From: Hydrolagus affinis
Lineage: Eukaryota
Direction: 5' to 3'
NCBI GenBank assembly: GCA_012026655.1
Contig: JAAILG010001044.1
Span: forward strand, 1-64,000
DNA length: 64,000 nucleotides
The position numbers are program-made. Within the stretch, counting starts at the first letter, position 1, and every line of letters begins with the position of its first letter. Positions 31,801-34,800 of this stretch are shown here, piece by piece.

Positions 31801-34800
31801 AATGGTGCCATATGAACAATCTGAATCATGTCCATAGAAGTGAGTTGCCTTGCTCTAATGAGCCCCTATGGATCTCCCTGATGCAGCTGTATTGACATGC
31901 TCACTTAAGCTAATACACCTAGACCAAGATGCCTTGGTGCCTTGAGCACTGACAGTCTGGGATACTGACAGTGTATCTTGCTTCAATCTTCAAAGGAGAA
32001 GTGATTAGAATGTTATCATTACCATTCGAAACGTGATTTTCCTATTCCCTCTTGGCAGAGGTGACATATCTGTGAGATGTGGCCAGCAGATCGCAGCAGC
32101 TAAAGCCACTTCAAAGCTTCCCTTGAAATTTTTTTCGAAATCATTAGAACAATGTGTTCAGATCAACGCAGATAGGACCTGATGTGAAGGTCAGACACAT
32201 TGCAATAACAATCTATACTAATTAATCTACCTCTTCAAATATGGAGTACGCTTGTTTGGGATAAATTATACTGATTACATTACATAACACAAAAACAATT
32301 TTAGAAAAAAACAGCAAGGTTTCCAACATGGTTCTCAAAAAAATTAACAGTTGACAGAAAACAACGATATTTCCCAAGCACACATAGATACCTAACAACA
32401 AACAAGAATGCACTCACCTCTTCACGCAATTTTATCAACTGTGAACGCACAGAAAGATAAAAAGGAAAGAAATGGCAGGGATGAAACATCTGTCATACAG
32501 CAGGGTAGAACATTAACTATGACAATTTATCTGTTTACGTACTTAGTATTAAGAAATCATAGAAGAGTTCCTTTAAAGAACCTAAAAAGGCTCATGCAAA
32601 GAGAATTTTCAGAAGCATATTTTGAAAGAACAAAGATTAGTTCTTCCTTTGTCAACACAGATGGTTACAATCATTTTTCTCTTGTTTAGTGCACAAGAGC
32701 TATGTTTGTCGCATGCTTCAAAGAAAGAGGGGGGCTTTACAGCAAAGATCTTTTTAAGAGACGTAAAATGTGTACAGTATCATTTCAAATTGTTGAAGTA
32801 GAGATGGCATTGTCATCGTCCATTTAACAGCTGCGATTAAAGACAAAGCGAAGCAGGCGTAACTGTGGGTCCAATATACACATTCAGAACATACACAACA
32901 CTGACAAGACTGACTGCATTGATTTACGCACAGATGTGGATTTTAATTGATTATAAACAAACTTGTGGTTAAAAAGGGACACTTTTAAAAAAAAAACACA
33001 TTCTGAAACCAACAGCGTGGGGGGAAAAGTGGACCATACAACATGCAACAGAGAGGTGGAGGGAGGCAGATTTCTGAATCTTTTTGAGCTGAAAATTGAA
33101 AGCACTGCAGCGGCGAAGGATAAATAAAGTACTTTTACTTCATAGGAGAACGTTACAAAATACCTAACAAAAATAACAGAGCTGCTGGCACTTACTTAAA
33201 AAGGAAAATCTACTTTTCCAATGATACCACTGACAAATGTTTTGAGGTTAGGAAGATGGTGCGAGCTTTTTCGGGTCACCACCTCAAATTGACCAGAATA
33301 CTTAACGGGCCAAAGTGCAAAACTACGCACTAGATGTGACCTATCCTCTCCAGTCATATCCATGAGAGGTACTATGAGGCGATGGCCAGTTGTTTTACAA
33401 TAGAATCTTAACAAAATGTGTTCTATCTTGTTTGTGCTGCCTGGCTGATTTTAAAGCTTCTCCATGGATTTGAGGGCGGCTTTAGTTTAGTTTATTTTCT
33501 GCCACGCTGAGGTACGTATTAATGCGTATTAACGGGGGGGCGGAAAAAGTGCTATTCAGATAGATAACAAGAGAATATACTGAAAGTTGCATTTAGTGGG
33601 CAATTGGACAATTGCGTTTTGCATTTTCTTCATTATCATCGTCATTAAGGACGGAGTTCTGCCGTTTCGGGTTATGATAATCGCAGGATTTTCAAACAAA
33701 GATTTTCAATATGGGTATTCGATACGAGTGGTAATCTGTTCTTTGTAACCTGAAAAATCTGGTGCGCGCTGGTTTGAACCAGCAGAATCTCTAGTGGCCA
33801 GACTGCTGCTGTGACTGAAATCGAAACTGCGCCGCAGTGTGTGAGATCCACGTGACACGCAAAACTACAGAATTATGAAAAGCGATAACGCCAATTCCTT
33901 CTCTGTCCGCATACAGATAACGAATAAATGCTGAACTCTATTAAATGTCCTTTACACATTATCGCTAGGTGAACACGCAATTTTCAGAACTCATAAAGGT
34001 TCTCCATTCATTTCGTTATAAATCCTCGCCATGTAACTAACAGATTTGTTGCTCATAATGATCTGCTCTGCCAGGGCTATATGAGATGATATTGACCTCT
34101 TTCAGATCTTTGGGAATTAAATTGACCAGTGCAAACCTCTGTGCTAAAACTGCAGTTTGGTGTATTCCGTGCACGGTAAGCCCTGTAGCATTATCGCTGG
34201 AGCTCACTACTTCACAAGTTTCGGCCGTATTACTTGCATTAACAAAATAAACAAAAACTTAGAAGCAAAGTTGGACATCTTGCAGATTTTGTCCTAAACT
34301 CGAAATTTGCCAGCCGAATATGAAAAAAGAATCTCCCCGATAAGGTTCTGCCCGCGGTCTTTGTACTATGATTAAAACCTAAACGGTTTTTAAATCGGAG
34401 GTTTTGTTGTTGCTTAGCTTTGCATTAAACAATGTATTTCCACTTGAGTTGCTGTTAATGCTGTTACTGAGCAGCTTGAGAAGACCTACTAGTGTCTGAC
34501 CTTCATCACCCTCGAGCCACCCACAAGGGTATGCTGATTAGTGGCCATACCTGGTTCTCGGAGGTATTCCCATCATCCCCCAGGAGCTCATTTCGAAGGT
34601 TTACCTCATCACTGTAGGCGATTCGTGACCTTTTCTGTAAACGAAAGGGAAAAAAAAAAGAGCAAAACTTGTGTTAGAAAGTAGGACTTACAAAATTAGT
34701 AGAAGTATAGTCTTCATACAGCGGCAGAGCCCCCTGATGGATTGCCTCCACCGCACAGATCTACTGTGGCAGTTTACTGTTCGGTGGTGAGATTCATGTT

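What the first reader, a model, noticed from the sequence alone, without database searches (positions are those of the whole stretch)
32418..32438. Neural VTI1A-beta microexon (LIKLREE) intact in a probable cartilaginous fish
Seen: a 21-nt frame-preserving exon with cag| and |gtgagt sites lies between the two constitutive exons and encodes LIKLREE. Known: this is the brain-specific 7-aa insert of synaptic-vesicle Vti1a-beta in mammals. Inference: the insert is unchanged since the jawed-vertebrate ancestor. Exons this small are often missed by annotation.
Basis: partly seen in the sequence, partly recalled or inferred. Interest (0 to 1): 0.75.

Follow-up and report, generated by a model that had tools for sequence, protein, structure and literature searches.

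The report
VTI1A brain microexon in chimaera-like fish
This is a real 21-base mini-exon of the vesicle-fusion gene VTI1A whose seven amino acids are the same from cartilaginous fish to mammals, but it is already described and annotated, so it is a well-conserved ordinary feature rather than a discovery.

Summary
On the minus strand, 32438..32418 reads LIKLREE, bounded by a pyrimidine-rich ...cacAG acceptor and a GTGAGT donor. It lies in phase 0 between two VTI1A exons, 34634..34551 and 29778..29694. The coding pattern occurs once in the window and in 0 of 100 shuffles.

The host is a cartilaginous fish. All 27 named hits to the upstream exon are chondrichthyan VTI1A. The best match is Callorhinchus milii, at 55 of 56 exon residues, so a chimaera-like species is likely.

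The exon is not new:
- LIKLREE sits at this junction in 131 of 233 named vertebrate VTI1A proteins.
- These include models from seven chondrichthyan genera, among them C. milii isoform X1.
- Papers describe it as the brain-specific Vti1a microexon known since 2000, regulated by Srrm3/4, and deleted experimentally in zebrafish.

Its flanks fit the SRRM3/4 microexon architecture. In AlphaFold models the insert adds one in-register heptad to the helix leading into the SNARE motif.

Neural-specific use in this species could not be tested. Interest is low.

The parts
34551..34634 (-). VTI1A exon upstream of the microexon (28 codons, phase 0 at both ends). It encodes the end of the Habc-to-SNARE linker.
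   Evidence: It is 28 of 28 identical to Callorhinchus, Heterodontus, Cetorhinus, Carcharodon, Pristiophorus and Heptranchias VTI1A. It carries the two-residue 'NL' insertion found in every chondrichthyan sequence in the alignment and in none of the bony-vertebrate sequences.
32441..32491 (-). 3' splice region of the microexon. An AG at 32491-32490 is followed by a 49-nt AG-free, pyrimidine-rich tract. The tract holds a candidate branch site TTCAT (32485-32481), UGC (32477-32475), UCUU (32470-32467 and 32457-32454) and a UGC 9-11 nt before the exon (32449-32447).
   Evidence: motif positions and pyrimidine content per 10-nt bin; sequence. The architecture is compared with the description of SRRM3/4 microexons in bioRxiv 10.1101/2024.09.17.613571 (passages).
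32439..32440 (-). Acceptor AG of the microexon.
32418..32438 (-). The 21-nt VTI1A microexon, encoding LIKLREE (the Vti1a-beta insert).
   Evidence: The same insert sits at the same junction in 131 of 233 named VTI1A proteins.
32409..32417 (-). Donor site GAG|GTGAGTGCA. It matches 7 of 9 positions of the CAG|GTAAGT consensus, with a purine at +3.
29694..29778 (-). VTI1A exon downstream of the microexon (28 codons plus 1 base). It is the first exon of the helix leading into the SNARE motif.
   Evidence: It is 27 of 28 identical to C. milii and 24-25 of 28 to elasmobranchs. The solved SNARE-complex chain 2nps_C begins aligning at the first residue this exon encodes.
29632..29693 (-). Not part of the microexon. 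This conserved stretch lies directly after the downstream exon. It holds a second donor 15 nt in (GT at 29678-29677) and an open frame of 20 codons ending in TGA.
   Evidence: See Noticed in passing.

Best explanation
The 21 bases are the orthologue of the alternatively spliced VTI1A microexon that turns Vti1a-alpha into Vti1a-beta, sitting in the VTI1A gene of a cartilaginous fish closest to the chimaera Callorhinchus milii. Shown here: its position, frame, splice sites and peptide are identical to the annotated beta isoforms of other jawed vertebrates. Inferred: the exon is skipped by default because it is too short for ordinary exon definition. In neurons (and probably neuroendocrine cells) it would be included when SRRM3/SRRM4 bind the UGC just upstream of the acceptor and help recruit early spliceosome factors; the strong donor assists. 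At the protein level it inserts exactly one heptad (leucines at insert positions 1 and 4) immediately before the helix that forms the SNARE motif. This lengthens that helix by about two turns without shifting its register. The added length plausibly changes which partners or vesicles the SNARE joins, such as synaptic vesicles in mammals.
For: Sequence and uniqueness. Flanking VTI1A exons and phase. Host: all 27 named hits among the 32 to the upstream exon are chondrichthyan VTI1A; C. milii matches 55 of 56 exon residues against 51-53 of 56 for 19 elasmobranchs. Same insert at the same junction: 119 of 217 named proteins and 131 of 233 after adding cluster members, always between ...Q and RA.... 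Chondrichthyan models with the insert: 3 of 3 C. milii cluster members including XP_042192605.1, 11 of the 15 listed members of the 20-member shark cluster (Carcharodon, Heterodontus, Cetorhinus, Heptranchias, Scyliorhinus), and Narcine X8. Models without the insert exist for the same species, which fits alternative use. An unnamed 275-aa protein, P0014, on a 2,810-nt contig carries the insert in a skate-like sequence; a contig that short must be spliced RNA, given introns of more than 2 kb here. Cis elements: UGC at -11..-9, a 49-nt AG-free pyrimidine tract, UCUU twice, and a 7 of 9 donor. These match the published SRRM3/4 architecture (passages). Literature: a brain-specific microexon recognised since Antonin 2000; one of 21 highly conserved microexons chosen for sharp neural inclusion and srrm3/4 regulation in zebrafish and human. 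Protein: the insert is residues 117-123 of C. milii beta, between Pfam V-SNARE (1-91) and V-SNARE_C (132-196). Chain 2nps_C starts aligning at residue 124. AlphaFold2 places the insert inside helix 114-195, and the alpha form has helix 114-218, so beta is seven helical residues longer before the SNARE core. The fourth insert residue continues the i+7 series L120-L127-L134-L141...L190.
Against: Nothing here measures splicing, so inclusion, tissue specificity and SRRM3/4 dependence in this species are inferred from other vertebrates. The upstream motif is UCUU-type rather than the UCUCUC form named in the paper. The branch point is only a motif guess. The exact protein of this species is not in the database: the third residue of the downstream exon differs from every hit. 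The species, and whether its own annotation holds the exon, are therefore unknown. The helix result rests on monomer AlphaFold models, which tend to draw SNARE proteins as long helices; pLDDT over residues 111-120 is only 72. Zebrafish deletions gave only mild phenotypes, so the functional weight of the insert is modest or context-dependent.
Confidence: 0.85

Rival explanations
1. The exon is real and spliced, but in this lineage it is not neuron-restricted. It could be constitutive, or shared with endocrine and other secretory cells.
For: VTI1A is listed among host genes of pancreatic-islet microexons controlled by SRRM3 in human and rodents (passage). No tissue data could be examined here. 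In C. milii the insert-bearing model is labelled isoform X1.
Against: Models with and without the insert exist in the same chondrichthyan species. Zebrafish and human show sharp neural inclusion, according to the selection criteria stated in PMC12626424. The flanks carry the signals of a regulated microexon rather than of a strong constitutive exon.
Confidence: 0.1
2. The sequence is a conserved relic that is no longer spliced in this species.
For: There is no transcript evidence from this species.
Against: All 21 bases are open and code the unchanged peptide. Both splice sites, the pyrimidine tract and the UGC are intact. Relatives have transcript-based or predicted models that include the exon.
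Confidence: 0.03
3. The match is a chance one: an AG...GT-bounded open 21-mer that happens to resemble the mammalian insert.
For: The same intron holds 103 in-frame AG...GT candidates of 3-27 nt, so splice dinucleotides alone mean little.
Against: The coding pattern occurs once in the window and in 0 of 100 shuffles. It lies exactly between the two exons that flank the insert in all 131 insert-bearing proteins.
Confidence: 0.001

Closest known systems
Mammalian Vti1a-beta, the brain-enriched splice form (Antonin, Riedel & von Mollard 2000, J Neurosci). The paper is not held; I saw it only as cited in PMC12626420, PMC9197314 and PMC7398939.
   Same: Seven-residue insert LIKLREE at the same exon junction. 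It is seen here in named mammalian models such as Peromyscus, Sus, Canis, Bison and Ornithorhynchus.
   Different: The host is a cartilaginous fish. Enrichment on synaptic vesicles and brain specificity are known for mammals only and were not tested here.
Zebrafish vti1a microexon (VastDB EX0084665), deleted by CRISPR in two 2025 eLife studies (PMC12626420 and PMC12626424; passages and one section read).
   Same: It is the same gene and the same conserved microexon class. It is described as neural-specific, srrm3/4-regulated and conserved with human.
   Different: Regulation and phenotype (mild changes in social behaviour and brain activity) were measured in zebrafish. Nothing comparable exists for this window's species.
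Annotated beta isoforms of cartilaginous fishes: C. milii XP_042192605.1 and UniRef V9KEK1/V9L4R9, Carcharodon XP_041065594.1, Heterodontus, Cetorhinus, Heptranchias, Scyliorhinus and Narcine XP_069756007.1.
   Same: Identical insert and junction. C. milii differs from the window at 1 of 56 flanking-exon residues.
   Different: The window's downstream exon has a residue found in none of them, so it is a different species or allele. Most of these are predicted models. I recall, without checking, that the V9K/V9L entries derive from cDNA.
SRRM3/SRRM4 (eMIC-domain)-dependent neural microexons.
   Same: Length is 3-27 nt. There is a UGC between the pyrimidine tract and the AG, UCU-rich sequence upstream, a long AG-free region and a strong donor.
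   Different: Dependence on SRRM3/4 was not tested in this species. The upstream motif is UCUU rather than UCUCUC.

Membership tests
VTI1A (Qb-SNARE Vti1a) gene | Exon sequences orthologous to VTI1A rather than to another SNARE. | tested here: met
   Each flanking exon was searched on its own as a contiguous window frame. All 27 named hits among the 32 hits, and the named hits listed, are VTI1A, apart from a few unnamed 'hypothetical protein' models carrying the same Pfam domain. tblastn with public C. milii and Heterodontus proteins finds both exons at E of 6e-13 to 3e-11.
VTI1A (Qb-SNARE Vti1a) gene | N-terminal Habc domain, full SNARE motif and membrane anchor. | not testable with these tools
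   Only three exons lie in the window. The remaining exons are more than 29 kb away on either side. The exons alone are too short for Pfam (0 families).
Vti1a-beta microexon | A 21-nt in-frame exon encoding LIKLREE between the exon ending ...Q and the exon starting RA.LLDN. | tested here: met
   The context is the same in all 131 insert-bearing named proteins.
Vti1a-beta microexon | Alternative inclusion that is enriched in brain. | not testable with these tools
   No RNA data are available. The indirect evidence is that models with and without the insert coexist in chondrichthyan species.
SRRM3/4-dependent neural microexons | Length of 3-27 nt and frame-preserving. | tested here: met
   21 nt, phase 0 at both ends.
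SRRM3/4-dependent neural microexons | UGC motif close upstream of the acceptor, downstream of a UCU/CUC-rich pyrimidine tract. | tested here: met
   UGC at -11..-9 and -39..-37; UCUU at -32 and -19; 8-10 pyrimidines per 10 nt from -50 to -11. The feature is as described.
SRRM3/4-dependent neural microexons | Branch point and pyrimidine tract set far from the AG. | tested here: inconclusive
   The AG-free zone is 49 nt, and the nearest plausible yUnAy upstream of the tract has its A at -44. The branch point was not mapped.
SRRM3/4-dependent neural microexons | Inclusion responds to SRRM3/4. | not testable with these tools
   This is stated for the zebrafish and human orthologues, in the selection criteria of PMC12626424.
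RBFOX-enhanced neuronal exons | (U)GCAUG in the downstream intron. | tested here: not met
   There is no GCATG in the 200 nt of downstream intron scanned for it and no TGCATG in 1 kb downstream. TGCATG occurs only upstream, at -160 and -609.

The most novel reading that the evidence does not exclude
The heptad insert may be one of two ancient splicing switches that bracket the first SNARE-helix exon. The second is the tandem donor and conserved read-through right after exon 29778..29694, which is kept from a chimaera-like fish to mammals. Together they would let secretory cells retune the length or register of the Vti1a helix. All seven residues of LIKLREE would then be fixed because they form a specific binding surface, not merely a spacer.
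Probability: 0.15. Interest if true: 0.45.

Novelty: already known. Interest (0 to 1): 0.15.

Why it matters
The finding is a clean, checkable example of how deeply neural microexons are conserved: seven residues unchanged across all jawed vertebrates sampled. It is also useful for annotating VTI1A in this species. It adds no new kind of element or mechanism, for three reasons:
- The exon has been known in mammals since 2000.
- It has been functionally deleted in zebrafish.
- It is already present in gene models of at least seven cartilaginous-fish genera.

The only open biology is what the extra heptad does.

Tried and rejected
- **Single-exon search.** I then searched each exon as the contiguous stop-to-stop window frame that holds it.
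- **Pfam on the exons alone.** 0 families.
- **RBFOX sites downstream.** None found.
- **RNA structure.** Around the microexon z = -0.70, with 46 of 200 shuffles folding as well. Around the conserved post-exon stretch z = +1.95. No structural explanation emerges.
- **Other genes in the window.** The nine longest frames gave no Pfam match above cut-off, only one sub-threshold chance match. Rfam found only tRNA-like SINE heads.
- **Origin before jawed vertebrates.** No cyclostome sequence appeared among the 120 rows shown. Of 28 unnamed distant Vti1 representatives at 40-58% identity, 27 show no insert at the junction and one has an unrelated longer linker. Each is a single representative without a taxon name, so this says little about alternative isoforms.
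- **Papers not held.** Antonin 2000 and Irimia 2014.
- **Full-text searches.** 'LIKLREE' is in 0 papers. 'vti1a' together with 'callorhinchus' is in 1 paper, on ADRA2 synteny.
- **Not possible here.** There is no eukaryotic genome or RNA-seq collection, so orthologous introns could not be aligned. Supplementary tables of the comparative microexon papers, which include elephant shark, are closed and may already list this exon.

Full report
**1. What is in the sequence**

- Read on the minus strand, 32438..32418 is a 21-base open frame that translates to LIKLREE.
- It follows a pyrimidine-rich stretch ending in ...ttcacAG and is followed by GTGAGT.
- About 2.1 kb upstream on the same strand lies an exon of 28 codons, 34634..34551, bounded by AG and GTATGG.
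- About 2.6 kb downstream lies an exon of 28 codons plus one base, 29778..29694, bounded by AG and GTAAGG.
- Both junctions to the 21-mer are in phase 0.
- The window has no N. I do not take it for human.

**2. Is it more than chance?**

- The degenerate pattern coding LIKLREE occurs once in the window on both strands and in 0 of 100 dinucleotide-preserving shuffles.
- Splice dinucleotides alone are not distinctive. The 4,772 nt between the flanking exons hold 103 in-frame, stop-free AG...GT candidates of 3-27 nt, 15 of them 21 nt long.
- Only this candidate also has >=75% pyrimidines upstream and >=7 of 9 donor-consensus matches. I set those cut-offs after looking at the data.

**3. Which gene and which organism**

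The three exons of this window were never joined for any search, fold or alignment.

A bare 28-aa exon was below the search tool's minimum. Each exon was therefore sent as the contiguous stop-to-stop window frame that contains it.

Results:
- The upstream exon gave 32 hits. All 27 named ones are VTI1A of cartilaginous fishes; the other 5 are unnamed.
- The downstream exon matched VTI1A across vertebrates.
- Exon by exon, C. milii matches 28 of 28 and 27 of 28 residues. The 19 elasmobranch species compared match 51-53 of 56 in total.
- In the alignment, the window's 'NL' insertion in the upstream exon is present in all chondrichthyan sequences and absent from all bony-vertebrate sequences.
- Two positions in the downstream exon are derived in all elasmobranchs. 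At both, the window and C. milii keep the state seen in bony vertebrates.
- One residue of the downstream exon matches no database protein.

My reading is a chimaera-like (holocephalan) fish: either C. milii with a variant, or a relative whose VTI1A is not in the protein set.

tblastn with public C. milii and Heterodontus proteins finds only these three exons in the window. The neighbouring introns therefore exceed 29 kb on each side.

**4. Is it already known?**

Yes, on both the database and the literature side.

Database evidence:
- Among 217 named VTI1A proteins gathered by the searches, 119 carry LIKLREE at this junction and 93 carry nothing.
- One has MIKLREE (Brachionichthys), one has LIKLQEE (Gastrophryne), two have LFLCLLQ (Nothobranchius), and one lacks the junction.
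- After adding cluster members the count is 131 of 233, always between ...Q and RA....
- Bearers span monotreme and placental mammals, birds, crocodilian, lizards, amphibians, lungfish, coelacanth, bichirs and teleosts.

| Cartilaginous-fish group | Members with the insert |
|---|---|
| C. milii cluster (incl. RefSeq isoform X1, 226 aa) | 3 of 3 |
| Shark cluster (20 members, 15 listed): Carcharodon, Heterodontus, Cetorhinus, Heptranchias, Scyliorhinus | 11 of 15 listed |
| Narcine isoform X8 | 1 of 1 |

- The same species also have models without the insert.
- An unnamed 275-aa protein, P0014, from a 2,810-nt contig carries the insert in a skate-like sequence. A contig that short must be spliced RNA.

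Literature evidence:
[quoted passage not shown] - PMC12626424 (passages and section 6) lists vti1a among 21 'highly conserved' microexons. They were chosen for sharp neural inclusion and srrm3/4 regulation in zebrafish, conserved in human. Deletion mildly altered social behaviour.
- The same paper states that neural microexons show 'remarkable conservation across jawed vertebrates'.
- PMC8797185 (passages) says they are largely shared within vertebrates and decline outside them.
- VTI1A is also named among hosts of SRRM3-dependent pancreatic-islet microexons, so 'brain-specific' is too narrow.

The primary 2000 paper is not held. No paper in the library contains the string LIKLREE. Only one holds both 'vti1a' and 'callorhinchus', and it concerns synteny of another gene. 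I found no main text that spells out this exon in a cartilaginous fish.

**5. How it most likely works: splicing**

The published architecture of SRRM3/4-dependent microexons has four elements (passages):
- a strong donor;
- a strong pyrimidine tract and branch point set unusually far from the AG;
- a bipartite enhancer of UCU/CUC-rich sequence followed by UGC near the acceptor;
- a UGC between branch point and AG in 79% and 74% of the paper's two sensitivity classes of SRRM3/4-dependent microexon (highly and lowly sensitive).

The window shows:
- UGC at -11..-9, and again at -39..-37;
- UCUU at -32 and -19;
- 8-10 pyrimidines per 10 nt from -50 to -11;
- no AG between -52 and the acceptor;
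- a candidate branch motif with its A at -44;
- a 7 of 9 donor.

There is no RBFOX GCAUG in the 200 nt of downstream intron scanned for it and no UGCAUG within 1 kb downstream. There is no notable RNA structure either.

That the exon is included through SRRM3/4 in neurons is inferred from this anatomy and from the orthologues. It was not measured.

**6. How it most likely works: protein**

- In the public C. milii beta protein the insert is residues 117-123. It lies between the Habc domain (Pfam V-SNARE, 1-91) and the SNARE region (V-SNARE_C, 132-196).
- Two structures are solved. One covers the Habc domain (1vcs). The other is a SNARE-complex chain (2nps_C) whose alignment starts at residue 124, the first residue after the insert.
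- AlphaFold2 with alignments of named sequences puts the insert inside one long helix, 114-195. Mean pLDDT is 72 for residues 111-120 and 89 for 121-130.
- The alpha form starts its helix at the same residue 114. Beta is therefore simply seven helical residues longer ahead of the SNARE core.
- Seven residues make one heptad. The fourth insert residue continues the i+7 series L120, L127, L134, L141, T148, G155, L162, I169, L176, L183, L190 through the whole motif. L127, L134 and L141 are invariant in the 37-sequence alignment.

I therefore read the insert as an in-register extension of the helix by two turns. This rests on sequence and on monomer models, which favour long helices for SNAREs. 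What the extension binds is unknown.

**7. Origin**

- No cyclostome sequence surfaced in the rows shown.
- Of 28 unnamed, more distant Vti1 representatives (40-58% identity), 27 have no residues at this junction and one has an unrelated longer linker.
- This fits an insertion that arose within vertebrates. It cannot exclude unannotated alternative exons elsewhere.

**8. Verdict**

Still untested:
- inclusion and tissue specificity in this species;
- SRRM3/4 dependence;
- the exact species.

**9. Side observation**

The intron directly after the downstream exon is conserved in an unexpected way.
- Read in frame, it stays open for 20 codons to a TGA.
- It is 14 of 20 identical to the end of a Tupaia gene model that stops at the same place, and 13 of 15 identical to a Sphenodon model. 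Frog and bichir models are similar.
- A second donor 15 nt in (GT at 29678-29677) coincides with the site used by four rodent isoform models that add five residues inside the SNARE helix.
- The stretch is not structured.
- I did not resolve whether it is an intronic enhancer, a tandem donor or a conserved truncated isoform.

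Noticed in passing
window 29632-29693, minus strand: The intron right after VTI1A exon 29778..29694 stays open in frame for 20 codons and then hits TGA. It is 14 of 20 identical to the C-terminal end of a Tupaia VTI1A model that stops at the same place, and 13 of 15 identical to a Sphenodon model. Xenopus, Hymenochirus, Leptobrachium and Polypterus models are similar. Intron sequence this well conserved from a chimaera-like fish to mammals is unexplained.
   Followed up: partly
window 29677-29693, minus strand: A second donor, GAGA|GTGAGC, lies 15 nt downstream of the main donor. It is at the position used by four rodent isoform models (Rattus, Meriones and two from Peromyscus) that replace one residue by six inside the SNARE helix. 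This may be a conserved tandem-donor event. No chondrichthyan model uses it.
   Followed up: partly
window, e.g. 1409-1753, 2831-3158, 7435-7767, 15930-16330, 17684-18020, 46035-46377: A tRNA-derived SINE of about 340 nt is scattered through the VTI1A introns. One copy gives 24 blastn hits, including itself, at 65-89% identity. Rfam finds 7 tRNA-like heads and ARAGORN finds 2. None lies within 3 kb of the microexon.
   Followed up: partly
literature (PMC11450717): A 2024 proteogenomic atlas of the human neural retina lists a VTI1A peptide crossing into this microexon as a 'Novel exon'. It also states that none of its novel peptides was in UniProt (passages). The exon has therefore been under-annotated even in human reference sets.
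   Followed up: no
database proteins P0098/P0124, P0081, P0106: There are rare departures from LIKLREE at the same junction: LFLCLLQ in two Nothobranchius models, MIKLREE in Brachionichthys and LIKLQEE in Gastrophryne. I did not check whether these are real substitutions, a different 21-nt exon or model errors.
   Followed up: no
alignment A1: Many predicted insert-bearing isoforms of birds, mammals and teleosts diverge right after the exon that follows the microexon. They run into species-specific tails that lack the rest of the SNARE motif and the membrane anchor. These may reflect alternative last exons in the very long next intron, or model artefacts.
   Followed up: no
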